Source: Sedimentisphaera cyanobacteriorum (GTDB taxonomy: Bacteria > Planctomycetota > Phycisphaerae > Sedimentisphaerales > Sedimentisphaeraceae). From it: a DNA stretch of 32,000 nucleotides. Location: assembly GCF_001997385.1 (NCBI RefSeq), contig NZ_CP019633.1, forward strand, positions 2,040,001 to 2,072,000, given 5' to 3'. The notes under the pieces were generated by a model. That model ran no database searches. It saw only the letters and a program-made list of their open reading frames with translations, and had not been told where the DNA came from. This document shows, piece by piece, positions 7,601 through 24,053 of this stretch. The position numbers and the translations under genes were made by a program. Positions within the stretch are counted from its first letter, which is position 1. Every line of letters starts with the position of its first letter.

Positions 7601-7761
7601 AGCGTCTCCAGGGAAGGCATTGGGGGAACGGAAGCAAGTATGATGGTCAAGCCGATGGTGATGATTACTTTCATGGTGACGAGCCCCTTCATACAGGGCG
7701 ACCCTGCCGCCACGGCGGAGATTTCATTGCCAATGATTTGAGCCGCCCGGAGCGCCTTCAT
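7597..7761 (-). CDS. Possible 54-aa small membrane ORF bridging two hydrolase genes (alternative 24-aa version from the ATG at 7674)
   Basis: Not in the ORF track (under 60 aa). MKALRAAQIIGNEISAVAAGSPCMKGLVTMKVIITIGLTIILASVPPMPSLETL. Its ATG overlaps the stop of the 1055-aa gene (ATGA) and its stop overlaps the ATG of the 884-aa gene (ATGA). Confidence 0.3.
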   Translation of the reverse strand: MKALRAAQIIGNEISAVAAGSPCMKGLVTMKVIITIGLTIILASVPPMPSLETL

Positions 7762-10700
7762 GGCTTGTACTCCTCGCCTTTTTGCAGCGTGCCCTTGTAG
7801 ATCCAGGCCGTGTCGCGCACGTAAGCGAAATCGGCGGCGAAACCACCGAAATACCAGACCTTACCCTTTTCGTCCGGAAAGGGCGACGGTTCAATGGTGC
7901 GCACCCCCTGAAGCCGGACGCCATCGGGCTGGTTCGCGGGATCTTTGATCGCGCCCCAATCATAGGAACCGGGACCGTTGCGCACCAGGAAGTAGGCGCC
8001 GTTAGAGCCCGCCTGCGGACTGCGCGGGTGGATGACGAAAGTGGTGACCAGATAAACCGCCCGGCCGTCATCCGGGCGGGTGAACGGCGTGAACCGGTTC
8101 AACGCGGCGCCAGTCATGAAGACACCGACGTTCGGCCAGGCATCGAACACGTTCGCGAAGTAGTTCTCGTAGTTGATTTCGTCCGTGGCGGCGAACTCGT
8201 TCGTGGGTTCGATGCGCCGGATGACCGGTAGCGGCGGGCGCTCCAGGGCACCAAGCAGCGCCGGTTTGCCATCGCTTCCGGTCACCGTGGTCAGGCCGCG
8301 CATCAGGAATTCGAACGGACCCTCATTTTCAAACCAGGAATAGACCCGTTCCCATCGCGGTTTCGCTCCGGAGATGCGCCGAAACAGCCCGCCTTGCTTG
8401 CCCCGCTGCCGTTGATTCGAGTAACCGAAAGCCGCGTAGAGAACGCCATCGCAAATTTCCATGCGCTGCGGACGGCCATACGGGCCACCTGCCATCTCGT
8501 TTTCCGGGGTCCAGCGCAGCCGCCCTGGTGCTTGCGGATCGTAGACGCCCCGATAGATGCCGCCGAAGTCCGCGGCGGCGAAAACCTCGCCGTCGTGCAC
8601 AATCAGGTCCCGGATGCCTGCATAACCGGGCTGATCCTCTGGAAGGGGCGCGATCCGTGAAAGGGTCCACGTGCCGGTTTCGTCATTGCGAACCGCGACG
8701 GTGAGCCACTTCTCTCCCCTGCGGATGTCGTAAAGTCCGGCCGCCAGGAGCGAGACCGGCTTCGGCAACGGTTTGCCGTCAGGATCTTCGGTGAACCGCA
8801 GCACTTCCAGGCAGTTAATGCGCAGGTGGTCCCGGCCGAAGGACTCCTCGGCGATCCACGGCCCGTCGCCGCGGTCCTTGCGCAAAATCTGCGGTCCGGG
8901 ATAGCCGGGGTAGGGTTTCACGGTAACATCGCTCTTCAACATGCTGGTGCCGGCGAAGAGCTTGCCCTCGTGGGCGGTGAGCCACATCAGTTCAGTGCCG
9001 CCGAGAAGCTGGCCGTTCGGGTCGCGGGTGCCGGGGAAGTAGTCTTTCTCGAAGGTGAACCAATCGACCTGCTTGCCGATGGGAACGAGCGCCGATTCCG
9101 GCGTGATCGGCCCGCGCTCCGCGCTCTTCCCCAGCTTGGCGACGAATTCCGTCCGGGTGATCTCCCCACTGCGATCCTGGTCGAAGACCTTGAAGATGGT
9201 TTGGTTGGGGAATTCCCGTTGGGTTACCACGCCGTCTCCGTCGAAGTCCATGGCGTGATACCTCAGGTTCAGCGCCTTGTTGGCGGCTTTGTCCGCGTCG
9301 TCTTTGGGTTTGTCTGAACCGGCGGGGGCAGGCTTGGCTTCGGACGTTCCGCCAGGTGAAGCCTCCCTGCCGGGCCAGCGTGCCGATACCGTGCGAAGCT
9401 CCTCGATCGACAAAGCTCCATCCTGGTCGCGGTCCGCGAATCTGAGTATCCTGGCGAGGCTGGGAAACTGCGTGAGTTCGTTGCCGGAGAGCTTCCCGTC
9501 GCCATTGCGATCGAGCCTGTCGAACCAATCTGGGCCACCGGCTTCGGCCTGGGTGACCTTGCCGTCGTTGTCAGCATCGAGTCGCTGGAACAGGCGCTCT
9601 GGACGGGTCAGCTCAGACCCCGTCTGCTGGTTTTGCCGCCACTCCACAAATTCAAAGATGGCACCTCCCGGACCGTGATACATCAGCACATTGCCGCGTG
9701 GGTTGACCGAGCCGGACAATCCCTCCTCGGTGAGCCCCGTGTGGACAGCGTCGGCGCTCTTGACCTTGTGCGCACGCTTCGCATGCTTCTGGAAAAAATC
9801 CCACATGAGGTCATTGGCGGAGATATCTGTGGTGGATGCGCCAAGCATGGCAACGGGCGGTTCCATACCGGGCCAGGTGTGGCCGCCGCCGTCAATTTCA
9901 TACAACACCACCTCTGAACCGTTCTTCCCTTCGCCCCAAACCTTGCGGATCACCCGCATGCCGTCATCTGCCGTGTCGGGCATTGGGGTAACGGTTGGTT
10001 CTTTTGCGCAGCCGTTGGCTTCAACCCAGCAGTTGATCGAATGCTCCACCGAAAAAAACTCCGGTCGCATGGATGCCGGAACATTTGAAGTGCCTTTTCC
10101 CCGCCCGCCGTTAAACGGAGCCAGTTCGTCCGCCGTCCCGTGGAAGTGGATGACCGATACCGGCGAGGCCGGGTTGCACTCCGCGGTGCCCATCGGCCCG
10201 CCGACCGGAGCGATCGCGGCGAACCGGTCGGCCAGTTCGGACGCTACCCGGTACGCCATCATCCCACCGTTGGAGATGCCGGTTGCGAAGACCCGTTCCT
10301 TGTCCACATTCACGACTGCTTCCAGGTCGCCGAGCAAAGCCTTTGTGAACCCCACGTCGTCGATCTTCTTCCGCTTGGCATACCCACCGACGTTGCCGGC
10401 GTTGAACGTCAGATTCTTGTCTTTGTCGGTCCCACTGCCGAACGGGTAGACGACAACGAATCCGGCGTCATCCGCCTTCTCATTAAGACCGCTCAGCCGG
10501 ATCATACTCTGCGGATTGCCGCCGCCGCCGTGAAATGCGACTACAACTGGCGTTTTTCGATCCGCTGTGTAATTCGGAGGAACGTGGATTCGGTAACGGC
10601 GTTCTTGTCCTTCTACGTCAATGGTCCGGGTGCGATCGCCCGCTCCGAAGGCGCCCCCGGCTTCCTCGGGCGGCGCAGGACGACGCATGGATCGCGCGAT

Positions 10701-10925
10701 CGCACCGGCGAATTCCCGGAAGCTGAGCAAACCGTCGTTGTCTTGGTCAGCCCCCTCCAGACGCGATTCTAACCGTGGAACGGTTTTGAGCTCAGTCGCC
10801 GATAGCTGACCGTCTTTGTTGGCGTCCAGCCGCTCAAACCCTTGCCGCAGGCGGGAGCCGTCCTGAGCAGCCGCGCAATTGACGAAGATATACAGCGAGC
10901 ACAAAAGGATGAATGTCAGTCTCAT
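7758..10925 (-). CDS. Secreted mosaic hydrolase: EF-hands + PHB-depolymerase/LpqC-type esterase, central EF-hand array, C-terminal domain shared with the 884-aa protein
   Basis: 1055 aa. About the first 385 aa parallel the 874-aa protein, nearly identical over roughly 245 aa. The central part has at least 5 D-x-D/N-x-D-G loops. The C-terminal roughly 450 aa align with the 884-aa protein (FEKDYFPGTRDPNGQLLGGTELMWLTAHEGKLFAG vs FEHSYLAGTRDPEGHFLGGTETMHLVAHEGKLFAG). Confidence 0.9.
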   Translation of the reverse strand: MRLTFILLCSLYIFVNCAAAQDGSRLRQGFERLDANKDGQLSATELKTVPRLESRLEGADQDNDGLLSFREFAGAIARSMRRPAPPEEAGGAFGAGDRTRTIDVEGQERRYRIHVPPNYTADRKTPVVVAFHGGGGNPQSMIRLSGLNEKADDAGFVVVYPFGSGTDKDKNLTFNAGNVGGYAKRKKIDDVGFTKALLGDLEAVVNVDKERVFATGISNGGMMAYRVASELADRFAAIAPVGGPMGTAECNPASPVSVIHFHGTADELAPFNGGRGKGTSNVPASMRPEFFSVEHSINCWVEANGCAKEPTVTPMPDTADDGMRVIRKVWGEGKNGSEVVLYEIDGGGHTWPGMEPPVAMLGASTTDISANDLMWDFFQKHAKRAHKVKSADAVHTGLTEEGLSGSVNPRGNVLMYHGPGGAIFEFVEWRQNQQTGSELTRPERLFQRLDADNDGKVTQAEAGGPDWFDRLDRNGDGKLSGNELTQFPSLARILRFADRDQDGALSIEELRTVSARWPGREASPGGTSEAKPAPAGSDKPKDDADKAANKALNLRYHAMDFDGDGVVTQREFPNQTIFKVFDQDRSGEITRTEFVAKLGKSAERGPITPESALVPIGKQVDWFTFEKDYFPGTRDPNGQLLGGTELMWLTAHEGKLFAGTSMLKSDVTVKPYPGYPGPQILRKDRGDGPWIAEESFGRDHLRINCLEVLRFTEDPDGKPLPKPVSLLAAGLYDIRRGEKWLTVAVRNDETGTWTLSRIAPLPEDQPGYAGIRDLIVHDGEVFAAADFGGIYRGVYDPQAPGRLRWTPENEMAGGPYGRPQRMEICDGVLYAAFGYSNQRQRGKQGGLFRRISGAKPRWERVYSWFENEGPFEFLMRGLTTVTGSDGKPALLGALERPPLPVIRRIEPTNEFAATDEINYENYFANVFDAWPNVGVFMTGAALNRFTPFTRPDDGRAVYLVTTFVIHPRSPQAGSNGAYFLVRNGPGSYDWGAIKDPANQPDGVRLQGVRTIEPSPFPDEKGKVWYFGGFAADFAYVRDTAWIYKGTLQKGEEYKP

Positions 10926-10960
10926 AGAAGCTCCTCCGGCCTATCGCCGAACTTCTTATT
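10115..10960. repeat. Near-identical duplicated tract, copy 2
   Basis: See 4045-4890. Offset is 6070. Confidence 0.85.
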
Positions 10961-11085: not shown

Positions 11086-11250
11086 TCAGAAATTGAGTGA
11101 TATGGAGATTTGTGTATAATCAGGGTATGACATTATGCAGGATTCAGGTAGCAGAATGCAGGCCGCTTCAGAGAATATCTCGACCAGGACAGCTCGGCGA
11201 TGGGCGGCAGAGAGTTTTTCGGCATAGCTTGGCGATTTAAGATTTGACAT
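11086..11250 (-). pseudogene. Truncated duplicate of the gene at 1-174
   Basis: MSNLKSPSYAEKLSAAHRRAVLVEIFSEAAC matches copy 1 for 31 codons. Homology stops at 11158 and the frame then runs into unrelated sequence and a stop. Confidence 0.6.
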
Positions 11251-11339
11251 ATTCAGCTCCAATGAGTGTTCGGTTTCGATTTACCTGACAGGCGTTGTTA
11301 ACTCGCTGAATTGTCATGCTGTCACAAAAGAGCGGGGTT
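11158..11339. repeat. Repeat A, copy 2
   Basis: Matches 82-264. Confidence 0.9.
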
Positions 11340-11425
11340 GAAAAGAACGGACTGTTAAGGTGGTTGAATAAATGTTGAAATATTCAACAAAATGGCAATA
11401 TAAGCCATATATTTGCAGTTTTTAC

Positions 11426-11454
11426 TTGTAAAAGTGGATAGGGGGGGGTATAAT
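11426..11454 (+). promoter_or_regulatory. Candidate promoter with a G8 homopolymer in the spacer, facing the DGR
   Basis: TTGTAA (11426-11431), a 17-nt spacer ending in GGGGGGGG (11441-11448), then TATAAT (11449-11454). Confidence 0.4.
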
Positions 11455-11518
11455 AGATACTTTAAATAGTGTTTTGATCGTCAAGACACGCTAGAATCTG
11501 AAAATTAATGGTTTTTTT

Positions 11519-13171
11519 GAGCCTGTTGCATAAATAATTGTCAGTGATTGCTCTTTTACAAGTGAATAAATCCAGCTTTTCGGTTATAATAGGCCAAAAG
11601 GATTGCTAAACATGTAAAGGATTACGAAATGGCTTACAATTTCCTGCCTTGCGACCGAAATCAGGCGTATCTTCTGCCTCCCTCATTGACGGATTGGCTG
11701 CCGGAAGATCATCTGGCGTGGTTTGTTCTTGATGCGGTTGAACAAATCGACCTATCGCAGTTTTACAAAAAATACCGTACTGATGGAGTCGGCAATTCAG
11801 CTTTTCATCCTTCGATGATGGTTGCTCTGCTGATATATTCCTACTGTAGCGGCGAGCGTTCCAGCAGAAAGATAGAAAAGCACTGCCAGACGGATGTAGC
11901 CTATAAAGTTGTTACTGCCAATCAATATCCCGACCACAGTACGATCAGCCGATTTCGCAAGGATAACCAGTCGCATTTAAAGAAGTTGTTTCTGGAAATC
12001 CTCAGGCTTTGTGTTGAAGCAGACATTGTTAAACTCGGCAATGTTTCATTGGATGGGACAAAGATCAAAGCCAATGCTTCGTTATCAGCCAATCGAACAC
12101 TAAAGCACCTGGAGCAGGAAATCGATAAGATGCTATCCGAGGCGGACGCTAAAGACGCCGAGGAAGACAAAGCTTATGGCGCTGATAAGCGAGGCGATGA
12201 ACTGCCCGAAGATATGCGGGACCGCAATAGCCGAATAAACCGTCTAAAGGCCTGTAAAGAGCGTTTAGAGCAGGAAAAAGCAGAAGCCGAAAAACAACAG
12301 CAGGACAAGATAGATGAGCGGAAATCCAAAGAAGAAAATACCGGCAAAAAGCCTCGTGGTCGTAAGCCCAAACCTGCCGAAGAAGCTGGAAACAAAGATG
12401 CCAAAGCCAATGTTACCGACCCCGACAGCAGAATCATGAAAACTCGAAAAGGTTTCGTTCAGGGTCTTAATGCTCAGGCGGTGACAACAGAGCAACAGAT
12501 TATCGTTGCTGAGGATGTGACCCAAGAGGAAAATGATAAACAGCAATTACATCCGATGCTTGAGCAGGCCGAAGAAAATCGACAGGCCGTTGAAATCGAA
12601 GAGGAAATGGGTGTGGCTTTGGCAGATGCTGGCTATTGCAGTGAAGATAATTTTACAAAGGAGCCTGCTGGTGACATTGAGTTGCTGGTGGCGACACAGA
12701 AAGATTATAAGCAGCGAAAGGCAATGGCCGAGCAACCGCCGCCGGAAGAACCGATACCGGACGGCTTGTCGCCGACAGAATTGATGGAACGTAAACTGCT
12801 GACCGAACGAGGGCGAGAATTATATAAGATTCGAGGTCAGACAGTCGAACCAGTGTTTGGGCAGATTAAAGATGTTCGCGGTTTTGATCGATTTATGCAA
12901 CGAGGCATTGAGGCTTGCCGCGGTGAGTGGTCGCTGATTTGCGCTACGCACAACCTTTTGAAGTTGTGGCGAAGCAAAAAGGCCTGCTGGAATTGATAAA
13001 AAGGCCGTTTTTATTCGTTTTGACGTGTAATTTTGCTTGTTTTTTTGGCGAAAACACGATACCATATAAAAAGCTAAGAAAAGGTGTTTGGGAAACAGAG
13101 AATTGAGCCGTCTGCCCCAGACAGCCGTCGAATCCAATGGTTGGATTCGAAAATCATTGTGCAACAGGCTC
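11519..13171 (+). mobile_element. IS1182-family insertion sequence (about 1.65 kb)
   Basis: Terminal inverted repeats GAGCCTGTTGCA at 11519-11530 and, as reverse complement, 13160-13171, with an imperfect extension to about 21 bp. T-runs on both flanks could be a TTTT target duplication. It contains a single transposase ORF. Confidence 0.8.
11629..12996 (+). CDS. IS1182-family (IS5-related, DUF772 + DDE) transposase
   Basis: 455 aa. N-terminus NFLPCDRNQAYLLPPSLTDWLPEDHLAWFVLDAVEQIDLSQFY...PDHSTISRFR, a central Lys/Glu-rich coiled segment, and C-terminal GQTVEPVFGQIKDVRGFDRFMQRG. Confidence 0.92.
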   Translation: MAYNFLPCDRNQAYLLPPSLTDWLPEDHLAWFVLDAVEQIDLSQFYKKYRTDGVGNSAFHPSMMVALLIYSYCSGERSSRKIEKHCQTDVAYKVVTANQYPDHSTISRFRKDNQSHLKKLFLEILRLCVEADIVKLGNVSLDGTKIKANASLSANRTLKHLEQEIDKMLSEADAKDAEEDKAYGADKRGDELPEDMRDRNSRINRLKACKERLEQEKAEAEKQQQDKIDERKSKEENTGKKPRGRKPKPAEEAGNKDAKANVTDPDSRIMKTRKGFVQGLNAQAVTTEQQIIVAEDVTQEENDKQQLHPMLEQAEENRQAVEIEEEMGVALADAGYCSEDNFTKEPAGDIELLVATQKDYKQRKAMAEQPPPEEPIPDGLSPTELMERKLLTERGRELYKIRGQTVEPVFGQIKDVRGFDRFMQRGIEACRGEWSLICATHNLLKLWRSKKACWN

Positions 13172-13189
13172 TTTTAGAGGAGAAAAGAG

Positions 13190-14047
13190 ATGAGAAGTTT
13201 ATTGGCAGTTTGTTTATGTGTATGTTTCATTTCGGGTATTTCATTTGCAGGCACAGTGACGGTTGGGGGTATTGACCTTGATTTTGTGACGATTGGTAAT
13301 GCGGGCAACGCCGCTGACAGTACCGGTTATGGTGCAGTCGATTATGCGTATCAGATCGGCAAATATGAGATCACCAATGGCCAGTGGAATGCCTTTGTAT
13401 CCGCTGCGGGTGCACCGACAGGCAATCCAAGTCACGCTTATGACGGAAGTGCTTACTGGACGGGCACGAACGTGCCGACGAACAGTGTCAGTTGGTATGA
13501 GGCGGCTCAGTTCTGCAATTACCTGACCAGCGGTGACAGGTATTCCGGGGCCTACAATTTCAGCCAAAGCGGAGATTTTCTTGGTGTTGACCGCGCTTCT
13601 GCCATTTCGGCGTATGGCACCACATACGTTATTCCTACTGAGGATGAATGGTACAAGGCGGCGTATTACACCGGTAGCGGTTATTCGCTGTATGCCAATG
13701 GAACGAATACAGCTCCGATTGCAGGTACTGATACGAACTATGATTATGTAATAGGACAGCCCTGGGAAGTTGGTGTTGGAAATGGCACCCAAGAACAGAA
13801 CGGGACCTATGATATGATGGGCAATGTTTGGGAGTGGAACGAAGCCCTGATCTCTGGTCCCAGTCGCGGCATCCGCGGTGGCTCCTACTACGTCAGCGAC
13901 TTCGACCTCAGTTCGTCCATCCGGGGCAGCGGCTACCCGAACAACGAGAGCATCAGCGTAGGGTTCCGCGTCGCCTCCGTCCCTGAACCGTGCAGTTTAG
14001 TGTTGCTTGGGTTAGGTGGATTGGCTTTACGATACAGGAAACGTTAG
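13190..14047 (+). CDS. DGR variable (target) protein: signal peptide, FGE-sulfatase/C-type-lectin-fold domain, PEP-CTERM anchor
   Basis: 285 aa. Motifs SVSWYEAAQFCNYL, PTEDEWYKAAY, GNVWEWNE, RGGSY and GFRVAS, then VPEPCSLVLLGLGGLALRYRKR. VR lies at the 3' end. Confidence 0.9.
   Translation: MRSLLAVCLCVCFISGISFAGTVTVGGIDLDFVTIGNAGNAADSTGYGAVDYAYQIGKYEITNGQWNAFVSAAGAPTGNPSHAYDGSAYWTGTNVPTNSVSWYEAAQFCNYLTSGDRYSGAYNFSQSGDFLGVDRASAISAYGTTYVIPTEDEWYKAAYYTGSGYSLYANGTNTAPIAGTDTNYDYVIGQPWEVGVGNGTQEQNGTYDMMGNVWEWNEALISGPSRGIRGGSYYVSDFDLSSSIRGSGYPNNESISVGFRVASVPEPCSLVLLGLGGLALRYRKR
13860..13980 (+). repeat. DGR variable repeat (VR)
   Basis: Gap-free alignment with TR at offset 1730. By hand count all 22 mismatches fall at TR adenines. 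Confidence 0.9.
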
Positions 14048-14087
14048 GGGCTTTCCCTTTATCCTTTTTTTCTTTTACCCTTTTGGG

Positions 14088-14110
14088 GAGCAGGGGCGAA
14101 GCCCCTGCTC
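14088..14110 (+). promoter_or_regulatory. GC-rich hairpin between target gene and avd
   Basis: GAGCAGGGGC-gaa-GCCCCTGCTC, a perfect 10-bp stem. There is no adjacent T-run on either strand. Confidence 0.5.
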
Positions 14111-14135
14111 GCTCGAAAATTGAATTTTAAAATGA

Positions 14136-14519
14136 ATGAATTCTGAGAAACCCAACGGTTTAAAAGGCGATGTGCCCATCTTGCTGTCCAAATGGTACGA
14201 TGTCTGCAAATGGATACTGGCGAAAGTTGACAGCTTTCCAAAGAACCAGAGGTTCATATTTGGCACACGCCTGGCAGACCGGTCACTGGGGATTTTGGAA
14301 ACACTGGTTGAGGCCGCTTACAGCAGCGGTGATAAAAAATTAGAGTTGCTCAGGACCGCCAATCGTGATCTGGCGGTCTTGAGATGGCTGATCCGCATGG
14401 CCAAAGATCGGCAGATCATCACGCTGAAGCAGTATCAATATGCCTGCGGTCTACTGGTTGAGTGCGGGCGTATGCTGGGGGGCTGGATAAAGGATTCCGA
14501 AAAAAGGAACCGGCCATGA
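14136..14519 (+). CDS. avd: DGR accessory variability determinant (Avd-like four-helix-bundle protein)
   Basis: 127 aa, helical and basic (WYDVCKWILAKVDSFPKNQRFIFGTRLADRSL...). It sits between the target and the RT, and its stop overlaps the RT start (ATGA at 14516-14519). Confidence 0.8.
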   Translation: MNSEKPNGLKGDVPILLSKWYDVCKWILAKVDSFPKNQRFIFGTRLADRSLGILETLVEAAYSSGDKKLELLRTANRDLAVLRWLIRMAKDRQIITLKQYQYACGLLVECGRMLGGWIKDSEKRNRP

Positions 14520-15562
14520 AACGACATAAACAACTCTATGAGTCGGTCTGTTCCTTTGAAAACCTCTATGCCGCTGCGGTAAAGGCCATGAAGGGCAAAC
14601 GCGGCAAACGGCCGGGAGCGGGCTTTTATGCCGAGATGGAGGATGAGATCATCACGCTGCAAAAGCAGCTTCTGGATGGAACCTATTGTCACGGCGGGTA
14701 TCATTACTTCGAGATTCACGAACCGAAACAGCGGACCGTAGCGGCGGCGGAATTTCGGGACCGGGTGGTACATCATGCCGTTATCCGGGTTATCGAGCCG
14801 CTGTTTGAGAGACGGTTTATCGAAGATAGCTATGCATGCCGGGTGAATAAGGGTACGCATGCTGGAATGAAACGGGCGGCACATTATGCGCGGCGTTTTG
14901 ATTATGCCCTGAAGTGTGACATTCGCAAGTATTTTGCCCATATTGACCATGAAATTCTTCTGTATTTATTCGCAAAGGTCATCGGAGATAAACAGCTGCT
15001 GGACCTGCTGCAACATGTCATCGGCAGTCATCGTGACGGCTGGCGGATGGTAGTGCCGAAAGGCGGGCTGCCGCTGTTTGACGGTCAGCTGGCGAGCCGG
15101 GGACTGCCTATCGGAAACCTGACCAGCCAGTTTTCGGCGAACGTTTACCTCAATCCGCTGGATCATTTTGTCAAACACGATTTACGCTGCAAGGGGTATG
15201 TGCGGTATATGGATGACTTCCTGCTGTTTAGTAATGACAAGCATCAGTTGCGGGATTGGGGTGATGCAGTCCGTGAAATCGTCAACGGTTTGAGACTGAA
15301 GATTCATCCCGATAAATATCGATTGCTGCGGTGTGACTGCGGGGTGGACTTTTGCGGATTTGTGGTGTTTGGTAACGGTCGTATTCGTGTACGTCGATCA
15401 ACGGCGCGGCGTTTCCACAGACGGTATCAAAAGAACCTGGAAGCTGTTAATAATTGTTTGGGCGATGCTGCGTCTCTGTCGCAGTCAGTGGCTGCCTGGG
15501 TCGGCCATGTCAAACACGCCCAAAGCTGGAATTTGAGAAAGGCGGTTTTATGCGGTTCATAA
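14516..15562 (+). CDS. DGR reverse transcriptase
   Basis: The ORF track starts at 14462. I prefer the ATG at 14516 ([11 protein letters not shown]...), which overlaps the avd stop. It has the IGNLTSQ motif typical of DGR RTs and the YMDD catalytic box. Confidence 0.93.
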
Positions 15563-15589
15563 AGGGCAGCGGGATTAATGGCGATGGAT

Positions 15590-15710
15590 CCAATCGCGGC
15601 ATCCGCGGTGGCTCCTACAACAACAACGACAACAACCTCAGATCGTCCAACCGGAACAACAACAACCCGAACAACGAGAACAACAACATAGGGTTCCGCG
15701 TCGCCTCCAA
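15590..15710 (+). ncRNA. DGR template repeat (TR)
   Basis: Starts 28 nt after the RT stop. It is a run of AAC-rich triplets (42 A in 120 nt by hand count) and matches VR at every non-A position. Confidence 0.9.
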
Positions 15711-15826
15711 GCCCCTTACGATAAATCTGCCGGTCAGAATCGCAACGGTGTCATAGCTGCTGCGACCGTACCGTTCAGGGACTACCCGCCTGTCCTGCGG
15801 CTCACTGGTGAGCGGCAAATAACAAG

Positions 15827-15877
15827 GCTCTGTTTGCGGCAAGTAGATTCTCGAAAGGCGTGGACAGAGCTGTTTTT
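15827..15877 (+). terminator. Possible terminator of the DGR transcript
   Basis: GCTCTGT, about 30 nt, ACAGAGC, then TGTTTTT. The stem is weak and the loop long. Confidence 0.3.
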
Positions 15878-15910
15878 AATATACGGTTCCGGTGGAAAAT
15901 ATGTCAGCAG

Positions 15911-16287
15911 CCAAAGTGTGGTACGTTTTTAAAAGATAGAATCGTCGGTCACATGATTTGCCCGAAGATGGCGCGATTATGGTAAGAGAGCAAAACGATA
16001 GAACTTTTGGCAGAGAGGTTAAGAGAGTTCCGGGCCAGTTCGGCGGAGGATATGCCTTTTTTTTGGCGGCCCAAAGAAAACAGAGATGTGTAGGATAGAA
16101 TCGCCTCAAGCGAGGCAATCCCCAAATACCGGGATTTAGAGCCAAATATCCAGATAAGAAGAAAGCCCAGCCATTTTCATGACCGGGCTTCTTCGTTAAT
16201 CGTTAGCAGTGGTTTTTACGCCACTGGTTGTTTTTGGCTCCGTATAAAAACGCCACAGGGCTGTTTAGGATAGAAGCTTACTAGACC
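15911..16287. repeat. Repeat B, copy 2
   Basis: Matches 313-692. Confidence 0.85.
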
Positions 16288-16379
16288 GGAACGTTTGCTG
16301 CCCTTAGAAAGAATCAAATTTTCGGACTGAGATACGAATTAACGCAACCACAGAGAACGCAGCCCAAAGAAAACAGCTT

Positions 16380-16429
16380 GAGCAGAGGCCCAATTTATTT
16401 GGGTTGGAAGAGGATTTGGGCCTCTGCTC
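16380..16429. repeat. Perfect 14-bp inverted repeat (stem-loop) at the 5' break of the integrase remnant
   Basis: GAGCAGAGGCCCAA, 22 nt, TTGGGCCTCTGCTC. On the minus strand it is followed by CTGTTTTCTTT. Confidence 0.6.
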
Positions 16430-16869
16430 AAAATGCGTATACTTTTAACATTAGCTATAGGATTAAGAAACGGTGATATTAATTCATTAAAAATCTCTGA
16501 TATCGATTTCGAACAAAATTGCATTTGCACTAAAAGGAAAAAATACATGCCTTCACGACCGTTTTCAGCAGTAATTATGTCTGAGCTTTCAAAGTATGTC
16601 TGCGGTTTTGAAATCGGCCAAGAGAAATTGTTCTCGAAAAAATTCCCGTATCGCAAATGGCGTAAGATTGGTGACAAAGCTGGATTATCGGGATTGAAGT
16701 TTCACGATTTGCATAAAACATTTTGTTCGCTACTGGCACAGAATGGTGTTTCCACGGCGGTCACCCAACGACTCCTGAAACATTCCTCGCCTAATCTAAA
16801 GTGTATACAAACGTAGACCCAGTCTTACGCCAAGCAATAGAACATCTGCCAATTAGTAATTGGCTATAA
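16382..16869 (+). pseudogene. Tyrosine recombinase/integrase remnant (catalytic domain only, frameshifted)
   Basis: LAIGLRNGDI (box I Arg), HDLHKTFCS and LLKHSS are present. The frame stops at 16816, but the -1 frame continues KVYTNVDPVLRQAIEHLP, which carries the expected catalytic Tyr. No N-terminal core-binding domain lies upstream (stop at 16379). Confidence 0.7.
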
Positions 16870-16951: not shown

Positions 16952-17218
16952 TTAAATGACCTTTTCTTTTTTGATTGAGTTATCTTTTTTGCCAAATATT
17001 CGCTTGGGCAATAAACACATAAAAACCGCAGTTAAGCTCGCTAATAATGCTGAAGCACCTTGACCTCCAATACAACCTGTTTGCGCGCAAAAAGGGCACG
17101 GTCCATCGCCACCACCTGAGATAAAAAAAATACCCGTAAACCATAAAAAGAAACGCCAGAGTTTATCTGATAATATTCTAAATAATCTGATATATCTCAT
17201 ACAGAAGTTTTTTATCAT
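16952..17218 (-). CDS. Small Cys-rich membrane protein
   Basis: 88 aa. Two hydrophobic segments flank GGGDGPCPFCAQTGCIGG. It overlaps the upstream gene by 4 nt. Confidence 0.45.
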   Translation of the reverse strand: MIKNFCMRYIRLFRILSDKLWRFFLWFTGIFFISGGGDGPCPFCAQTGCIGGQGASALLASLTAVFMCLLPKRIFGKKDNSIKKEKVI

Positions 17219-17985
17219 AAGCTATCCAGCCAGTTTGAAGCGAGCATTGCAAAATCCAGAAAGTTTACCTTACCATCCCTGTTTGAGTCGGCTCGTTCGT
17301 AATAATCGTTGTATATTGAGCCTTCATCTTTAAGCCAATAATAACTAAGCTCAGCAAGGTCATAAATATCTACTGTGCCGTCCACTACCAAATCACCGGC
17401 CAATGGTTTAACATTGAAAACTAAAGTGAAAGGCTCTGAAGGTTCGTATTGACCTAAAGCATCATACATTTGCCACGTAATCCAAAATAAACTGATCCCG
17501 TCGACTGCCTGAAAAGACATATGCATGTGAGGATCGCCGCGCAGAGCATGAATTTCACTGTGATTGAAAGATTGCCCAATCTGATTAATTGTAAATTGCG
17601 GGTAATCTTTATGAACCGCTCTGAAATCTGCCGGCATTGAAATACATTCAATCATTATTTGGTAATCTTCATTGGGGTTTCCAGCAAGACATCGGTTAGG
17701 ATCATAAGTATACATGGCATTGGAATTGGTTCCCTGGAAACCATCAAATCCGGGTTCACCGATTCGCCATTTATAATCGGAAAATATACTCGCCGATAGA
17801 GAATAATACCAATTTCCACTACTGCGGTATTTTTGACGGCAATCTACAAAAAGCTTATTATCATCATCAGTACCAGAGATGCTATCTTCATTTATACCGA
17901 TGATAAAGTGATCCAGCGGACATTCAGCATATACATGAACAGTCACAAAGGATAAAAAGAAAATTAGAAATATATGTTTTTTCAT
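17215..17985 (-). CDS. Secreted protein with dockerin-like C-terminus (triad 1, paralog of 18767-19600)
   Basis: Signal peptide, then YAECPLDHFIIGIN. C-terminal paired loops are DGTVDIYDLAELSYYW and DSNRDGKVNFLDFAMLASNWL. Confidence 0.8.
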   Translation of the reverse strand: MKKHIFLIFFLSFVTVHVYAECPLDHFIIGINEDSISGTDDDNKLFVDCRQKYRSSGNWYYSLSASIFSDYKWRIGEPGFDGFQGTNSNAMYTYDPNRCLAGNPNEDYQIMIECISMPADFRAVHKDYPQFTINQIGQSFNHSEIHALRGDPHMHMSFQAVDGISLFWITWQMYDALGQYEPSEPFTLVFNVKPLAGDLVVDGTVDIYDLAELSYYWLKDEGSIYNDYYERADSNRDGKVNFLDFAMLASNWLDSL

Positions 17986-18011
17986 TTTTACTATTCCTTA
18001 GGAGTTTTAGG

Positions 18012-18779
18012 TTATGGATTCTCCGGCCACGTCGGAGCTGATTCAGGATACCAATAACATTTACCGGGCCATTGGTAAGTATCTTCAAATTCCAGTGTTT
18101 CAACATGTCCATCTGCAAAAAGGTAGTTTGATTTTCCCATGTGGCGGTCCCATGCGATAAACTTTTTTGCATACTCGACAGAGCCTTCCCATGATTCCGG
18201 ATGTATGTGGTCGGCCAATAGAAAATTTTCAGTATCCGGTGCTTCGCTGATCCAAATACAGTACATGGGTTTTCGGATCGAATCGACACGATTATAACGG
18301 TTCGTAGAGCCGCCATATCTGAAACAGACAGGGTCTAAGAGAGCATTAACCGCAAAACTGGAATAACGTTTATCCTGCTGCTCGTTTAGAGGCCTGTCCC
18401 AATCTACAAAGTTTTTGGATTTATCACTGGGACAGTGGAACAACAATTGTTCACCTGTATATCTCGAAAGAACCCTAAGCCAATACTGATCCGGGTTACT
18501 AATATGGCACGAACTGGGGGGCAGACGGTTTTCGCTGTCGATAATATAAGCCTGTACCGCAATCCCAACTTGCCGCATATTGCTGGTGCATATAAGCCTT
18601 TTAGCCTGCTGTCTTGCTTTATTTAAAGCAGGCATTAAAATGCTAAGCAGCATAGCAATAATTGCAATCACCACCAAAAGCTCAATCAAAGTAAACCCTC
18701 TGGATTGGCCAGCGATTGAATTATAGCCGAGGCAGTTCTCGCTGCCCCGGCTAAAACTGAACTTATTTACGCGTTGCAT
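18012..18779 (-). CDS. Prepilin-type N-terminal cleavage/methylation + H-X9-DG (DUF1559) protein (triad 1)
   Basis: [43 protein letters not shown], and HMGKSNYLFADGHVE (H, 9 residues, DG). Confidence 0.9.
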   Translation of the reverse strand: MQRVNKFSFSRGSENCLGYNSIAGQSRGFTLIELLVVIAIIAMLLSILMPALNKARQQAKRLICTSNMRQVGIAVQAYIIDSENRLPPSSCHISNPDQYWLRVLSRYTGEQLLFHCPSDKSKNFVDWDRPLNEQQDKRYSSFAVNALLDPVCFRYGGSTNRYNRVDSIRKPMYCIWISEAPDTENFLLADHIHPESWEGSVEYAKKFIAWDRHMGKSNYLFADGHVETLEFEDTYQWPGKCYWYPESAPTWPENP

Positions 18780-19600
18780 TTTTTCTCTCTATTTCTCAAA
18801 AGAGGGATTGCGCCCAAGCCTATGAGCAATAAAGAAGCAGGTTCTGGAACTGTTACAAAGGCCATTTCAAAATTATCTGATGCTGTGTACATACCACTTG
18901 CATCATAAGCTGAAAATGTTGCTGTAACTTCCTGGCCAATATCAGGCGTAAGCCAGAAATTAAAACTCATATGCTCATGAATTCCCCATGCATTTTTATC
19001 TGACAACCATGCCTTGTCCAACTGATAAGTATCTGCGTCAGCGATTAAAACAGGTGTGTCATTCGGTAAAAGCATAAAGAAATCATCCGAAACTACAGAT
19101 GTCCCTTCGCGTTTGAGGTAAATATCCCACTGGGGGGTTGTGCTCTGATCAACACTTTCAAGATTCCATTTTCCCTGCGGGCCATGAGCGGAATGCCAGC
19201 CGTCAAGATGTTGCGTGCCTGACGGATCACCATAGCCGTTAGACTTGCTATACATGAATTGACATGTCCAAAGCTGTTTCCCTGAGGCATCACCTTTCAT
19301 GATCGGACTGCCGCTTTCTAAAACAGGTACTAACTGCAAAAATACATCGCCATTTGCCTGTTCCCAGTTCGGCCAGCCGGGTGTAGCTGCATCGTGAACC
19401 GGCGGCAGTGAGAAGAACCAGAGTTTATCGTTATCGGTTAAGTCCGAATCTGTAGCCTTGCTTGGATTTCCCGGATCAGACCAGTCAGGTCTCCAGGTCG
19501 GATTGACTCCGATGTGAGTATGAGCTAATGTACATTCAGCGTAACTTATATTGACAAAAACACATAACATAATTAGCGTAATAATGATCTTAAGATTCAT
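18767..19600 (-). CDS. PEP-CTERM protein (triad 1)
   Basis: Signal peptide, then YAECTLAHTHIGVN. The C-terminus is VPEPASLLLIGLGAIPLLRNREKK. Confidence 0.85.
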   Translation of the reverse strand: MNLKIIITLIMLCVFVNISYAECTLAHTHIGVNPTWRPDWSDPGNPSKATDSDLTDNDKLWFFSLPPVHDAATPGWPNWEQANGDVFLQLVPVLESGSPIMKGDASGKQLWTCQFMYSKSNGYGDPSGTQHLDGWHSAHGPQGKWNLESVDQSTTPQWDIYLKREGTSVVSDDFFMLLPNDTPVLIADADTYQLDKAWLSDKNAWGIHEHMSFNFWLTPDIGQEVTATFSAYDASGMYTASDNFEMAFVTVPEPASLLLIGLGAIPLLRNREKKCNA

Positions 19601-22454: not shown

Positions 22455-22590
22455 TCGTATGGCATAAGCTTATAAAAGTAAAAGGAGTGCAGAAGTTAAA
22501 AAGGAGTGTTTAGGTAAAAGCTTCGAAATGGTTTCGGACCAGGATGAAGAAAAGAATTAAGTAAACAAAAAAGAATTGGAGAAAACTCAA
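22442..22590 (+). promoter_or_regulatory. Conserved leader element, copy 1 (upstream of the triad 2 PEP-CTERM gene)
   Basis: About 150 nt, collinear with 26294-26444. It has GAAAGGAGGTTG, 8 nt, then ATG GCA stop, the hairpin TCGAAA-tgg-TTTCGA, and AATTGGAGAAA before the ATG. Confidence 0.6.
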
Positions 22591-23232: not shown

Positions 23233-23251
23233 GTTGATTTAATATATCAGG

Positions 23252-23277
23252 ATACAGGCCGTTTAAACGGCCTGTAT
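23252..23277 (+). terminator. Perfect palindromic hairpin after the triad 2 PEP-CTERM gene (attenuator or terminator)
   Basis: ATACAGGCCGTTT/AAACGGCCTGTAT, followed by TCT. Confidence 0.45.
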
Positions 23278-23300
23278 TCTGATTGCTAAGGCTTGATAAG

Positions 23301-24038: not shown

Positions 24039-24053
24039 GGGTAACAAGGAATT

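What the first reader, a model, noticed from the sequence alone, without database searches (positions are those of the whole stretch)
13190..15877. Complete diversity-generating retroelement (target-avd-RT-TR) with strictly adenine-specific VR/TR divergence
TR (15591-15710) and VR (13861-13980) align without gaps at offset 1730. By hand count there are 22 mismatches. Every one is at a TR adenine (22 of 42 TR adenines) and none of the 78 non-A positions differs. TR reads as a string of AAC-type triplets ([39 protein letters not shown]). VR encodes [39 protein letters not shown]. Between them lie a 127-aa Avd-like ORF and an RT with IGNLTSQ and YMDD motifs, joined by an ATGA overlap. This is the mutagenic-retrohoming signature. 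The ORF track hides it, because TR shows up only as a spurious 100-aa Asn-rich ORF.
Basis: partly seen in the sequence, partly recalled or inferred. Interest (0 to 1): 0.85.

Follow-up and report, generated by a model that had tools for sequence, protein, structure and literature searches.

The report
Intact DGR with PEP-CTERM-anchored variable lectin
This is a genuine, structurally complete diversity-generating retroelement in the cultured planctomycete Sedimentisphaera cyanobacteriorum. It rewrites the tip of a secreted, PEP-CTERM-tagged lectin-like protein that public annotation mislabels as a sulfatase-maturing enzyme, so it is a well-supported new member of a known kind of system rather than a new kind.

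Summary
VR (13861-13980) and TR (15591-15710) align without gaps at offset 1730, with 22 mismatches, all at TR adenines, and 0 of 78 non-A positions differ (chance about 8e-13). The last two (TR AA vs VR GT) are flank, because relatives carry the same GT, so 20 are true A-substitutions.

All canonical parts are present:
- a target gene with signal peptide, FGE-sulfatase/C-type-lectin-like domain, VR and PEP-CTERM tail;
- Avd, above NCBIfam's DGR-Avd cutoff;
- an RT with IGNLTSQ and YMDD, whose best solved relative is Bordetella bRT.

I add a covariation-supported structured RNA around TR: a long-range duplex bracketing TR plus three helices, ending at 15877. Its order parallels the elements described for the Bordetella DGR RNA.

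The architecture target-avd-RT-TR-RNA recurs in about 20 relatives, mostly PVC-superphylum metagenome genomes. Nearly all targets end ...GFRVA-S-V-PEP. Four related lineages carry different VRs from nearly the same TR, and metagenome assemblies break at the VR.

Caveats: an IS1182 copy sits 18 nt upstream of the target start, cutting off the native promoter seen in relatives. The linked integrase is truncated, and the sister species holds only a relic. Current activity is untested.

Novelty: new member of a known kind. The PEP-CTERM class and the RNA module are modest additions.

The parts
11340..11518 (+). Possible remnant of the DGR operon's upstream/promoter region, now separated from the target gene by the IS. 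It contains TTGTAA-17-TATAAT at 11426-11454.
   Evidence: Promoter-like site. Weak similarity (GGGGGGGGTATAAT...) to the conserved TTGACA-17-TATAAT promoter region upstream of the target in L003 and L050. Homology is weak, so this assignment is tentative.
11519..13171 (+). IS1182-family insertion sequence (transposase 11629-12996; terminal inverted repeats 11519-11534 / 13156-13171). It sits in the 5' leader of the target gene, 18 nt before the ATG. It is not part of the DGR.
   Evidence: NF033551 transpos_IS1182 at 324.8 bits, cutoff 270. Inverted repeats. Homology of L003 and L050 to the window starts only at 13173. The identical transposase carries at least 4 NCBI accessions in this genome.
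13190..14047 (+). DGR target (variable protein) gene, 285 aa. It has an N-terminal signal peptide (about residues 1-20, inferred from sequence), an FGE-sulfatase / C-type-lectin-like domain, the VR and a PEP-CTERM tail. The RBS GGAGAAAAGAG lies at 13177-13187.
   Evidence: Pfam PF03781 at 2.5e-21 over residues 52-262. 100% identical to NCBI AQQ09838.1 of Sedimentisphaera cyanobacteriorum. The structure model is of modest quality (pLDDT 66) and its best PDB matches are FGE folds (E 4e-3, TM 0.36).
13861..13978 (+). VR (variable repeat), encoding residues about 225-263. The invariant GC-rich 3' end GGGTTCCGCGTCGCCTCC (13961-13978) is the IMH-like segment.
   Evidence: Across 70 homologues, residues whose TR codon has A at position 1 or 2 have mean entropy 3.04 bits, against 0.48 for other VR codons and 0.77 for the scaffold.
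13976..14044 (+). PEP-CTERM sorting signal (S-VPEP-CSLVLLGLGGLAL-RYRKR), directly abutting VR.
   Evidence: TIGR02595 at 18.2 bits, cutoff 16. Pfam PF07589 at 20.4 bits, cutoff 20.7. 115 of 118 complete homologues have xPEP within 12 residues of GFRVA, and in 108 the PEP starts exactly 2 residues after it. The same tail occurs in about 20 DGR loci.
14046..14110 (+). Intergenic elements between target and avd: a small terminator-like hairpin plus T-run (14046-14075), a conserved pyrimidine motif (CCCTTTATCC...CTTTTACCCTTTT), and a 10-bp GC hairpin GAGCAGGGGC-GAA-GCCCCTGCTC (14088-14110).
   Evidence: hairpin z = -3.0. The motif and a GC hairpin with differing stem sequences are conserved across relatives. 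Role unresolved: terminator, avd-operon control element, or a distal counterpart of the VR-proximal cruciform.
14136..14519 (+). avd (accessory variability determinant), 127 aa.
   Evidence: NF033474 at 101 bits, cutoff 80. Pfam bAvd at 4.1e-20. Weak hit to Bordetella Avd 4dwl. NCBI names it 'diversity-generating retroelement protein Avd', WP_077540514.1.
14516..15562 (+). DGR reverse transcriptase, 348 aa. Its ATG overlaps the avd stop (ATGA). Motifs LPIGNLTSQ and YMDD are present.
   Evidence: RVT_1 at 2.6e-19. Best PDB relative is Bordetella bRT 8ub7_A, E 8.4e-42, residues 2-340 vs 3-315. The group II intron model scores 123 bits, far below its 300-bit cutoff.
15564..15573 (+). 5' strand (GGGCAGCGGG) of a long-range RNA duplex that brackets TR. 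It starts one base after the RT stop codon.
   Evidence: It pairs with 15785-15795. Across 21 distinct sequences, 95.1% of cells are paired against 26-54% with slid partners. 4 of 5 variable pairs show compensatory changes. Covariation score 0.29 vs 0.11, with 0/500 shuffles reaching it. The alignment was built by hand.
15591..15708 (+). TR (template repeat), possibly from 15586. It contains 40 A, mostly in AAC codons, and is not translated as such.
   Evidence: The ORF 15454-15756 that covers it hits FGE-sulfatase only because TR copies VR.
15709..15877 (+). Conserved structured RNA 3' of TR, analogous to the Bordetella 'Sp' region. In order: AAGCCCC linker; helix 15732-15734/15770-15772 enclosing stem-loop 15740-15749/15756-15765; single-stranded CAGGGACUA; 3' strand of the TR-bracketing duplex 15785-15795; stem-loop 15797-15806/15807-15816; A-rich GGCAAAUAACAAGG; long terminal helix about 15826-15840/15857-15871 with conserved GAGUAG / CGAAAGGCG internal motifs; U-run 15872-15877.
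   Evidence: Found in 35 loci by nhmmer. In the 28-sequence alignment A4, 36 pairs were predicted, 24 with compensatory changes. 94.9% of cells are paired against about 40% with slid partners, with 0/500 shuffles reaching it. Homology of relatives to the window ends exactly at 15877. There is only a sub-threshold match to Rfam RF03022 Phage_DGR (17.2 bits, threshold 50).
16421..16869 (+). Truncated tyrosine integrase (C-terminal half only, with a frameshift). It is homologous to the intact integrase next to the closest related DGR (L003).
   Evidence: tblastn of the L003 integrase matches residues 181-335 only. Pfam Phage_integrase at 3.6e-13 on the 127-aa fragment.

Best explanation
The region 13190-15877 is a chromosomal diversity-generating retroelement of Sedimentisphaera cyanobacteriorum (Planctomycetota, Phycisphaerae).

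Proposed mechanism. Steps 1-4 are inferred from the Bordetella paradigm. Only the sequence footprint and the parts are shown here.
1. avd, RT, TR and the 3' RNA module are transcribed as one RNA that ends at the U-run at 15872-15877.
2. The RNA folds so that a duplex between 15564-15573 and 15785-15795 brackets TR. The flanking stem-loops would dock the Avd-RT complex. The order (stem-loop, single strand, duplex, stem-loop, A-rich stretch, long interrupted helix) parallels the Avd-binding, priming, cPRT-stop and RT-binding elements described for Bordetella.
3. The RT copies TR into cDNA and misincorporates opposite adenines.
4. The cDNA replaces VR (13861-13978) in the target gene, guided by the invariant GC-rich 3' end.

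Because 40 of the 42 adenines in 15591-15710 sit at codon positions 1 and 2, mostly as AAC, about 22 residues on the ligand-binding face of a C-type-lectin-like domain are randomised while the scaffold is kept.

The product is exported by a signal peptide. It carries a PEP-CTERM signal immediately after VR, so it is presumably processed or anchored by an exosortase at the cell envelope. It would act as a variable surface binding protein, not as a formylglycine-generating enzyme.

The element once belonged to a small integrase-associated module. In this strain the integrase is truncated and an IS1182 copy has separated the target gene from its ancestral promoter.
For: - A-only TR/VR divergence: 22/22 mismatches at TR adenines and 0/78 at non-A positions, p about 8e-13.
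- Avd scores above the equivalog cutoff.
- The RT is closest to Bordetella bRT over its full length and keeps the YMDD and IGxxxSQ motifs.
- The target is an FGE-sulfatase/CLec domain with VR at its C-terminal end.
- The same architecture with A-specific mismatches occurs in about 20 relatives.
- Family-wide hypervariability falls exactly at the residues encoded by A-containing TR codons: 3.04 vs 0.48 bits, Mann-Whitney p 9e-8.
- Four related lineages carry different VRs that differ from this TR almost only at A sites. These are the window itself; L050, whose scaffold is 97.8% identical (7 A + 1 C); L003 (19 A + 2 C); and S. salicampi (21 A + 2 non-A).
- 7 of 8 independent metagenome contigs carrying an Avd that clusters at >=90% identity with the window's start at the position equivalent to the VR 3' end (window 13959-14052), as expected if VR is heterogeneous in those populations.
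- The structured RNA is supported by covariation. Its layout matches the elements described for Bordetella DGR RNA in Handa et al., bioRxiv 10.1101/2023.10.23.563531.
- The PEP-CTERM tail is conserved in 115/118 homologues. Four other proteins in the window score above the PEP-CTERM threshold.
- Zero non-A differences over 78 positions argues for a recent homing event.
Against: - There is no direct evidence of activity in this strain. The sequence is a single consensus with no read data.
- IS1182 (11519-13171) lies 18 nt upstream of the target ATG. It removes the strong TTGACA-17-TATAAT promoter region seen about 125 nt upstream of the ATG in L003 and L050. No consensus promoter was found at 13000-13190.
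- No GC hairpin lies within 4-34 bp downstream of VR as in the phage DGRs of Guo et al. 2011 (PMC3240598). The nearest conserved GC hairpin is 109 nt away, beyond the PEP-CTERM codons.
- The associated integrase is a fragment.
- The sister species retains only a relic, so the lineage does decay.
- The window's subclade lacks the first hairpin(s) after TR that other relatives have.
- The assignment of RNA helices to Avd-binding or RT-binding roles is by analogy only.
- No exosortase gene is visible in the window.
Confidence: 0.93

Rival explanations
1. It is a real DGR by descent but is now silent or decaying in this strain. The IS1182 insertion uncoupled the target gene, and possibly the whole operon, from its promoter. 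The integrase is dead, and the VR seen today is a frozen product of past homing.
For: IS1182 lies 18 nt before the ATG, and homology to the promoter-bearing leaders of L003 and L050 starts only at 13173. No consensus promoter lies between the IS and the ATG. The integrase is truncated. S. salicampi keeps only the VR tail plus avd, next to another transposase, with no RT.
Against: All three ORFs are intact and full length relative to homologues. TR and VR are identical at all 78 non-A positions, so there has been no drift since the last homing. The IS is present as at least 4 identical copies, so the insertion is probably very recent. avd-RT-TR may have its own promoter in the conserved target-avd spacer. 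Transcription reading out of the IS could still drive the target. The scan tool does not cover planctomycete promoters.
Confidence: 0.2
2. The two repeats are an ordinary partial gene duplication: a pseudogene fragment of the target's 3' end that diverged by normal mutation. The neighbouring RT would be a group II intron or retron-type RT, as the GenBank annotation 'LtrA' implies.
For: GenBank calls the RT 'Group II intron-encoded protein LtrA'. The top NCBIfam hit is the group II RT/maturase model. The TR-covering ORF hits FGE-sulfatase.
Against: All 22 differences fall on adenines of one copy, p about 8e-13. The group II model scores 123 bits against a 300-bit cutoff. No group II intron or retron RNA was found by Rfam. 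The RT aligns end to end with Bordetella bRT at 8e-42. Avd passes its equivalog cutoff. The pattern recurs in about 20 loci.
Confidence: 0.01
3. The target is a working formylglycine-generating enzyme (sulfatase maturase), as annotated, and its variability is incidental.
For: Pfam PF03781 match. NCBI names it 'aerobic sulfatase maturase' / 'FGE family protein'. The best fold matches are FGE structures.
Against: The mature protein has a single cysteine (C109) outside the signal peptide and the PEP-CTERM tail. There is none in the C-terminal segment where FGE carries its catalytic Cys pair (established knowledge of FGE), and TR encodes none there. That segment is the hypervariable VR. No NCBIfam enzyme model comes near its cutoff. 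As I recall, the organism was described as an anaerobe, whereas FGE needs O2. The same paradox is noted for anaerobic PVC strains in PMC6388578. As I recall, the PF03781 fold is the known scaffold of DGR variable proteins such as Treponema TvpA.
Confidence: 0.02

Closest known systems
Bordetella phage BPP-1 DGR (mtd-avd-TR-brt), the prototype
   Same: Adenine-specific TR-to-VR information transfer. Avd plus an RT with IGxxxSQ and YMDD motifs (RT E 8e-42 to bRT). VR at the 3' end of a C-type-lectin-fold target. A GC-rich invariant VR 3' end. [quoted passage not shown]
   Different: It is cellular rather than phage-borne. TR and its RNA module lie downstream of the RT instead of between avd and RT. 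The target is a small secreted FGE-sulfatase-type protein with a PEP-CTERM tail, not a tail-fibre protein. No GRNA-loop hairpin lies within 4-34 bp of VR. Avd sequence similarity is weak (E 0.007).
Treponema denticola TvpA-type chromosomal DGR targets (FGE-sulfatase/DUF323-type C-type-lectin fold variable proteins)
   Same: A small secreted protein of the PF03781 fold with VR at the C-terminal end, and a cellular DGR. Roux et al. 2021 list targets of this type, including one described as 'PF03781 [48-261]; TMhelix [259-281]; signal peptide'.
   Different: As I recall, TvpA is a lipoprotein without a PEP-CTERM signal. Here, VR is followed within 2 residues by VPEP, a hydrophobic helix and a basic tail. 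No sequence-level PDB hit to TvpA was obtained, and the fold comparison was of low quality.
Rfam RF03022 Phage_DGR RNA
   Same: Its position next to TR and several shared motifs (UCCUGC...GCAAAUA, GAGUAG...CGAAA, terminal helix) in a full-length alignment of the model.
   Different: The score is 17.2 bits against a gathering threshold of 50. No relative reached E <= 5. Membership is therefore not met. The RNA here is best treated as an uncatalogued lineage-specific version of the DGR RNA.
PEP-CTERM / exosortase-sorted surface proteins
   Same: A C-terminal VPEP motif, a hydrophobic helix and an Arg/Lys cluster. Several such proteins are encoded nearby.
   Different: No previously described PEP-CTERM protein family that I could find is a DGR target. 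Full-text searches pairing DGR or retroelement terms with PEP-CTERM or exosortase returned no relevant paper.

Membership tests
Diversity-generating retroelement (DGR) | A TR/VR repeat pair whose differences fall at adenines of TR | tested here: met
   22/22 mismatches at TR A and 0/78 at non-A, p about 8e-13. 20 remain if the two flank bases are excluded.
Diversity-generating retroelement (DGR) | A reverse transcriptase of the DGR clade (IGxxxSQ motif, YxDD, closest to bRT) | tested here: met
   IGNLTSQ and YMDD are present. The best PDB relative is 8ub7_A bRT at E 8.4e-42 over the full length, against 4.6e-16 for group II RTs. No formal phylogeny was built.
Diversity-generating retroelement (DGR) | An accessory protein (Avd or equivalent) adjacent to the RT | tested here: met
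   NF033474 DivGenRetAVD at 101 bits, cutoff 80. Pfam bAvd at 4.1e-20.
Diversity-generating retroelement (DGR) | VR in the 3' part of a target ORF, encoding a variable ligand-binding fold (C-type lectin or Ig-like) | tested here: met
   VR covers residues about 225-263 of 285, within PF03781 (2.5e-21). Hypervariability is confined to residues encoded by A-containing codons. The structure model is only moderate and the FGE-fold match is weak.
Diversity-generating retroelement (DGR) | An IMH-like GC-rich 3' end of VR, and a GC hairpin/cruciform a few bp downstream (4-34 bp in phage DGRs) | tested here: inconclusive
   The invariant GC-rich GGGTTCCGCGTCGCCTCC ends both repeats. No significant hairpin lies in the 70 nt after VR. 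A conserved GC hairpin lies 109 nt downstream, outside the range in PMC3240598.
Diversity-generating retroelement (DGR) | [quoted passage not shown] | tested here: met
   36 local pairs, 24 of them covarying, with 94.9% of cells paired. The long-range duplex 15564-15573 x 15785-15795 is 95% paired and covaries. Assignment of functions to the helices is by analogy.
Diversity-generating retroelement (DGR) | Ongoing A-site diversification of VR in the population | not testable with these tools
   No reads are available for this isolate. Indirect evidence only: different VRs in 4 related lineages and assembly breaks at VR in 7 of 8 related contigs.
Rfam RF03022 Phage_DGR RNA | Covariance-model score at or above the gathering threshold (50 bits) | tested here: not met
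   17.2 bits, E 0.5-1.5. No relatives matched.
PEP-CTERM (exosortase-dependent) sorting | A C-terminal PEP motif, a transmembrane helix and a basic cluster | tested here: met
   TIGR02595 at 18.2 bits, cutoff 16. PF07589 at 20.4 bits, cutoff 20.7, just below. The tail is conserved in 115/118 homologues.
PEP-CTERM (exosortase-dependent) sorting | An exosortase (EpsH/Xrt) encoded in the genome | not testable with these tools
   Only 32 kb of the genome is available. Four other proteins in the window score above the PEP-CTERM threshold, which implies such a system exists.
Formylglycine-generating enzyme (as annotated) | A catalytic cysteine pair in the C-terminal active-site segment | tested here: not met
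   There is no Cys in residues 110-263. That segment is the Asn-codon-templated VR.
Group II intron RT/maturase (as annotated 'LtrA') | Passing the TIGR04416 cutoff and having flanking intron RNA domains | tested here: not met
   123 bits against a 300-bit cutoff. Rfam found no intron RNA.

The most novel reading that the evidence does not exclude
Small signal-peptide + FGE-sulfatase-fold + VR + PEP-CTERM proteins may form a very large class of DGR-diversified, exosortase-sorted surface lectins in PVC bacteria, a class not yet named as such. More than 6,600 homologues have E < 1e-10. In this class the hypervariable binding face is separated from the sorting or cleavage motif by only two residues. 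They are served by a distinct target-avd-RT-TR cassette with its own covarying TR-bracketing RNA that Rfam does not capture. If so, many of the 'paradoxical' FGE genes of strictly anaerobic PVC bacteria would be variable binding proteins, not enzymes. S. cyanobacteriorum would then be a cultured host in which to study exosortase-coupled display of a DGR repertoire.
Probability: 0.45. Interest if true: 0.5.

Novelty: new member of a known kind. Interest (0 to 1): 0.35.

Why it matters
- Annotation. Three misleading or uninformative public annotations in a complete genome of a cultured planctomycete are corrected. The RT is labelled 'LtrA', the target 'aerobic sulfatase maturase', and TR and VR are not annotated at all.
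- The FGE puzzle. It gives a concrete explanation for at least some of the PF03781 'FGE' genes reported as puzzling in strictly anaerobic, sulfatase-rich PVC bacteria (PMC6388578).
- Targets. In this DGR lineage the variable protein is almost always PEP-CTERM-tagged. I found no paper that links DGRs with exosortase sorting.
- RNA. It defines a covariation-supported RNA module for the 'TR downstream of RT' architecture, laid out in the same order as the Bordetella RNA. This supports the view that the cis-priming ribonucleoprotein mechanism is general.
- Experiments. The host is a cultured isolate, so activity, surface display and the effect of the IS insertion can be tested directly.

Tried and rejected
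- Exact-sequence contig look-ups for the window's RT, Avd and target found nothing. The listing of cluster members later showed the proteins are in the collection under NCBI accessions.
- A scan of viral contigs with the A-to-N degenerate TR pattern found nothing. The RT scan of viral contigs gave one locus. The element is therefore cellular, not phage-borne.
- Rfam at gathering thresholds found nothing in the window. The weak RF03022 hit was not reproduced in relatives, so I do not claim membership.
- Single-sequence folding of TR plus flanks was not better than shuffles (z = -0.07). Only comparative analysis revealed the structure.
- The 3-bp helix GGG/CCC (15778-80 / 15785-87) predicted by RNAalifold never covaries and competes with the covarying long-range duplex. 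I treat it as spurious.
- The inverted repeat 13979-13996 / 15765-15782 (83% complementary) was judged to be chance.
- Folding of the 100 nt after VR as DNA showed no significant hairpin in the window or in 4 relatives.
- A search for integrase, IS1182 or GIY-YIG genes next to other related DGRs found them only in L003 and the window. They are not family features.
- The 31-nt perfect inverted repeat at the start of contig L050, which duplicates the promoter region, could mark an invertible promoter or be an assembly artefact. L003 lacks the left copy, so I left it unresolved.

Full report
**Observation.** I re-derived the repeat pair by machine. At a fixed offset of 1730, window 13861-13980 (VR) and 15591-15710 (TR) align without gaps and differ at 22 positions. 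In every case the TR base is A (22 of its 42 A) and the VR base is G (13) or T (9). None of the 78 non-A positions differs. If 22 differences fell at random among 120 positions, the chance that all hit A is about 8e-13. The repeat finder reported the same pair independently.

In the VR reading frame the TR adenines sit at codon positions 1, 2 and 3 in the ratio 20:20:2, the classic AAC design.

One refinement is needed. The last two 'mismatches' (TR AA at 15709-10 vs VR GT) are also GT in the VRs of two relatives and begin the VPEP codons. They are flank, not mutagenesis, so the true repeat is 13861-13978 / 15591-15708 with 20 A-substitutions. No other copy of TR or VR exists in the window on either strand.

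**The parts.**
- *Target.* The ORF 13190-14047 (285 aa) has an N-terminal signal-like sequence and a Pfam FGE-sulfatase domain (2.5e-21). Its C-terminal PEP-CTERM motif scores 18.2 bits on TIGR02595 (cutoff 16) and 20.4 bits on Pfam (cutoff 20.7).
- *Avd.* The ORF 14136-14519 scores 101 bits on NCBIfam's 'diversity-generating retroelement protein Avd' model (cutoff 80).
- *RT.* The ORF from ATG 14516 overlaps the avd stop as ATGA. It is an RVT_1 protein with LPIGNLTSQ and YMDD. Its best solved relative is the Bordetella DGR RT in the bRT-Avd-RNA complex (8ub7_A, E 8.4e-42, residues 2-340 aligned to 3-315). Group II intron RTs score 4.6e-16 or worse. The group II intron/maturase model reaches 123 of the 300 bits it needs, and Rfam finds no intron or retron RNA.
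- *Spurious ORF.* The 100-aa ORF 15454-15756 over TR hits FGE-sulfatase only because TR copies VR.

**Source and existing annotation.** The target protein is 100% identical to AQQ09838.1 of Sedimentisphaera cyanobacteriorum, on a 2.95-Mb contig (Planctomycetota, Phycisphaerae). NCBI already names the Avd 'diversity-generating retroelement protein Avd'. It calls the RT 'Group II intron-encoded protein LtrA' / 'reverse transcriptase/maturase family protein', and the target 'aerobic sulfatase maturase' / 'FGE family protein'.

The rest of the window is ordinary chromosome of a PVC bacterium. It holds EF-hand esterases, DUF1559 prepilin-like proteins, dockerin proteins, Fur and DtxR regulators, flavodoxin, and four further proteins above the PEP-CTERM threshold. 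There are no phage genes. Only one related locus turned up among viral contigs.

**Relatives.** RT-based scans returned 22 genome loci and 26 metagenome loci. Nearly all named genome hits are MAGs of Planctomycetota, Verrucomicrobiota, Kiritimatiellia or Victivallales. A simple repeat-pair finder showed the same order (VR, then avd, RT, TR) with A-dominated mismatches in about 20 of them.

In every locus where the target's 3' end was present, with one distant exception (L018), VR is followed within a few residues by VPEP, a hydrophobic helix and a basic tail. Among the 120 best of more than 6,650 homologues (E < 1e-10), 115 of the 118 complete ones have this tail, and in 108 'PEP' starts exactly two residues after GFRVA.

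Across 70 aligned homologues I compared column entropy. Residues whose codon in this window's TR has A at position 1 or 2 average 3.04 bits. Other VR residues average 0.48 bits and the scaffold 0.77 bits. This is a family-wide footprint of adenine mutagenesis.

**Evidence bearing on activity.** It is indirect but consistent.
- L050 is a metagenome contig whose target scaffold is 97.8% identical to the window. Its VR differs from the window's TR at 7 A sites and 1 C site, and the contig breaks inside VR.
- L003 (RT 91% identical) has a VR differing at 19 A and 2 C sites, with different outcomes from the window's VR.
- The S. salicampi relic differs at 21 A and 2 non-A sites.
- Of eight independent contigs carrying an Avd that clusters at >=90% identity with the window's, seven begin at the position equivalent to window 13959-14052, the 3' edge of VR. 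All lose homology to the window at exactly 15877. Assemblies breaking at VR is what population heterogeneity would produce.
- In the window itself, the absence of any non-A difference over 78 positions argues that the last homing event was recent.

**RNA.** Downstream of TR is a conserved non-coding stretch, 15709-15877, detectable in 35 loci. On a 28-sequence alignment, RNAalifold predicts 36 pairs, of which 24 show compensatory changes. 94.9% of cells are paired, against 36-45% when partners are slid by 1-3 columns, and 0 of 500 column shuffles reach the observed values.

In addition, a G-rich decamer immediately after the RT stop codon (15564-15573) pairs with 15785-15795, so that TR is bracketed by a long-range duplex. 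The upstream motif was located by a structure-blind regular expression. Across 21 distinct sequences 95% of cells pair, against 26-54% when slid, and 4 of the 5 variable pairs covary. Examples of the central triplets are AAU/AUU, GAC/GUC, GGU/ACC and AAC/GUU. The caveat is that this alignment is hand-built, with a gap position that I chose.

The order of elements is: stem-loop, conserved single strand (CAGGGACUA), 3' strand of the duplex, adjacent stem-loop, A-rich stretch, long interrupted terminal helix, then a U-run. This parallels the published description of the Bordetella DGR RNA, which has an Avd-binding stem-loop, a priming region, a cPRT-stop duplex with adjacent stem-loop and adenosines, and an RT-binding stem-loop (Handa et al., bioRxiv 10.1101/2023.10.23.563531). 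The functional assignment is inference.

Rfam's Phage_DGR model (RF03022) matches 15738-15868 over its full length but at only 17.2 bits (threshold 50). It does not match the relatives, so I do not file the RNA under that family. The window's subclade (window, L023, L025, L027) lacks the variable hairpin(s) that other relatives have just after TR. This is a clade trait, not a lesion.

**Context and caveats.** L003 and L050 share a leader with a perfect TTGACA-17-TATAAT promoter about 125 nt upstream of the target ATG. Their homology to the window begins only at 13173. Immediately upstream in the window lies an IS1182-family element (11519-13171). Its transposase scores 324.8 bits (cutoff 270), it has 15-16-nt terminal inverted repeats, and it is present as at least four identical copies in the genome. 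The IS therefore sits in the target's leader, 18 nt before the ATG. No consensus promoter lies between it and the gene.

In L003 an intact tyrosine integrase next to a tRNA-Leu gene precedes the cassette. The window has only the C-terminal half of that integrase, downstream at 16421-16869. In the sister species S. salicampi the locus is a relic, with the VR tail and avd next to an rve transposase and no RT. So the lineage decays, and a recently silenced state cannot be excluded for the window. I give that about 0.2.

I found no GC hairpin within the 4-34 bp after VR that is typical of phage DGRs (PMC3240598). A conserved pyrimidine-rich motif and a GC hairpin whose stem differs between relatives (14088-14110 in the window) lie between the target stop and avd throughout the family. 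Its role is open.

**What the target is not.** The mature protein has one cysteine (C109), and none in the C-terminal segment where FGE has its catalytic pair. That segment is the VR, templated by Asn codons. It is therefore a binding protein on the FGE/C-type-lectin fold, as I recall is known for DGR targets such as TvpA, and not a sulfatase maturase. A paper on anaerobic PVC isolates calls the presence of many PF03781 'FGEs' in strict anaerobes paradoxical (PMC6388578). DGR targets of this type explain at least some of them.

Full-text searches pairing DGR or retroelement terms with PEP-CTERM or exosortase returned nothing relevant. The supplementary data of Roux et al. 2021 list a target of this architecture only as 'PF03781 + TMhelix'.

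**Verdict.** It is a canonical DGR in mechanism and parts, so it is a new member of a known kind. It is partly recognised already by NCBI's Avd annotation.

The additions here are the PEP-CTERM-tagged target class, the covarying TR-bracketing RNA for the 'TR after RT' layout, the IS-disrupted leader, and the corrected annotations. Interest is moderate (0.35). A specialist would not be surprised by a DGR in a PVC genome, but a cultured host and an unreported link to exosortase sorting give it some value.

Noticed in passing
window 82-685 vs 11158-11339 + 15911-16282: A roughly 600-bp sequence near the window start is repeated (86-92% identity). It covers the 5' end of a minus-strand gene plus its upstream region. 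In the second copy it is split by about 4.55 kb (roughly 11340-15910), which contains the possible promoter remnant, IS1182 and the whole DGR cassette. The first copy looks like an 'empty site', which suggests the DGR cassette was inserted, or moved, as a unit. The right junction coincides with the cassette end at 15877.
   Followed up: partly
window 3710-4884 vs 9780-10952; 7172-7306 vs 9495-9630: There are further segmental duplications (88-95% identity) involving the 5' parts of two large EF-hand/esterase genes (2231-4855 and 7758-10925, minus strand). The region around the DGR is rearrangement-prone.
   Followed up: no
window 11519-13171: An IS1182-family element with 15-16-nt terminal inverted repeats. 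The identical transposase protein has at least 4 accessions in the genome, so this IS is probably active in S. cyanobacteriorum.
   Followed up: partly
window 16421-16869 (and the palindrome 16378-16393 / 16416-16431): A truncated, frameshifted tyrosine integrase homologous to residues 181-335 of the intact integrase that precedes the DGR in L003. A perfect 16-nt palindrome lies directly upstream of the fragment.
   Followed up: partly
L050:3-33 and 207-237; L003:3938-3969: In metagenome contig L050 the promoter region upstream of the target (TTGACA-17-TATAAT) is duplicated as a perfect 31-nt inverted repeat at the contig start, flanking 173 bp. This could reflect an invertible promoter, since an integrase is adjacent in L003, or it could be an assembly artefact. 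L003 has only the right copy.
   Followed up: partly
L003:5302-5559: An 85-aa ORF that looks like a GIY-YIG nuclease by sequence (not scanned against domain libraries) is inserted between the target gene and the GC hairpin/avd in the closest relative. It is absent from the window and from all other loci.
   Followed up: partly
window 14050-14135 and equivalent spacers in L001, L002, L004-L006, L010, L012, L023, L026, L027, L029: A conserved pyrimidine-rich motif (CCCTTTATCC...CTTTTACCCTTTT) is followed by a GC-rich hairpin with a 3-4-nt loop (GAA, GAAG, GTAG, GCAG, GTGA) and then CGCGATTTTTGAA. It is conserved between target and avd even at about 57-60% RT identity. The stems differ in sequence but stay complementary. 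Function unknown.
   Followed up: partly
L060 (S. salicampi NHPQ01000032.1) 7694-8558: The sister species keeps only a relic of the DGR: the last 60 codons of the target (VR + PEP-CTERM), the spacer and avd (annotated by NCBI as a 185-aa Avd). It has no RT and no target body. An rve-type transposase lies about 1.2 kb downstream.
   Followed up: yes
L051 (Logan SRR7048222 contig) 3206-4372: An RT 91% identical at the nucleotide level to window 14624-15616 is fused to an unrelated N-terminal segment that hits Pfam Sulfatase, with no avd upstream. The contig ends inside TR. It is probably a chimeric assembly or a rearranged copy.
   Followed up: no
L014:1514-1587, L032:2136-2209, L003:2516-2593, L006:10262-10348: tRNA genes lie within a few hundred bp to about 3 kb of several related DGR cassettes. 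This is consistent with integration of the cassette, or of a carrier island, near tRNA genes.
   Followed up: no
window 824-1747(-), 18767-19600(-), 22576-23232(+), 26409-27131(+): Four more small secreted proteins above the PEP-CTERM threshold lie in the window. They are interleaved with DUF1559 prepilin-like and dockerin-domain proteins in two similar gene clusters (17215-19600 and 22576-25007). 22442-22624 is repeated at 26294-26478.
   Followed up: no
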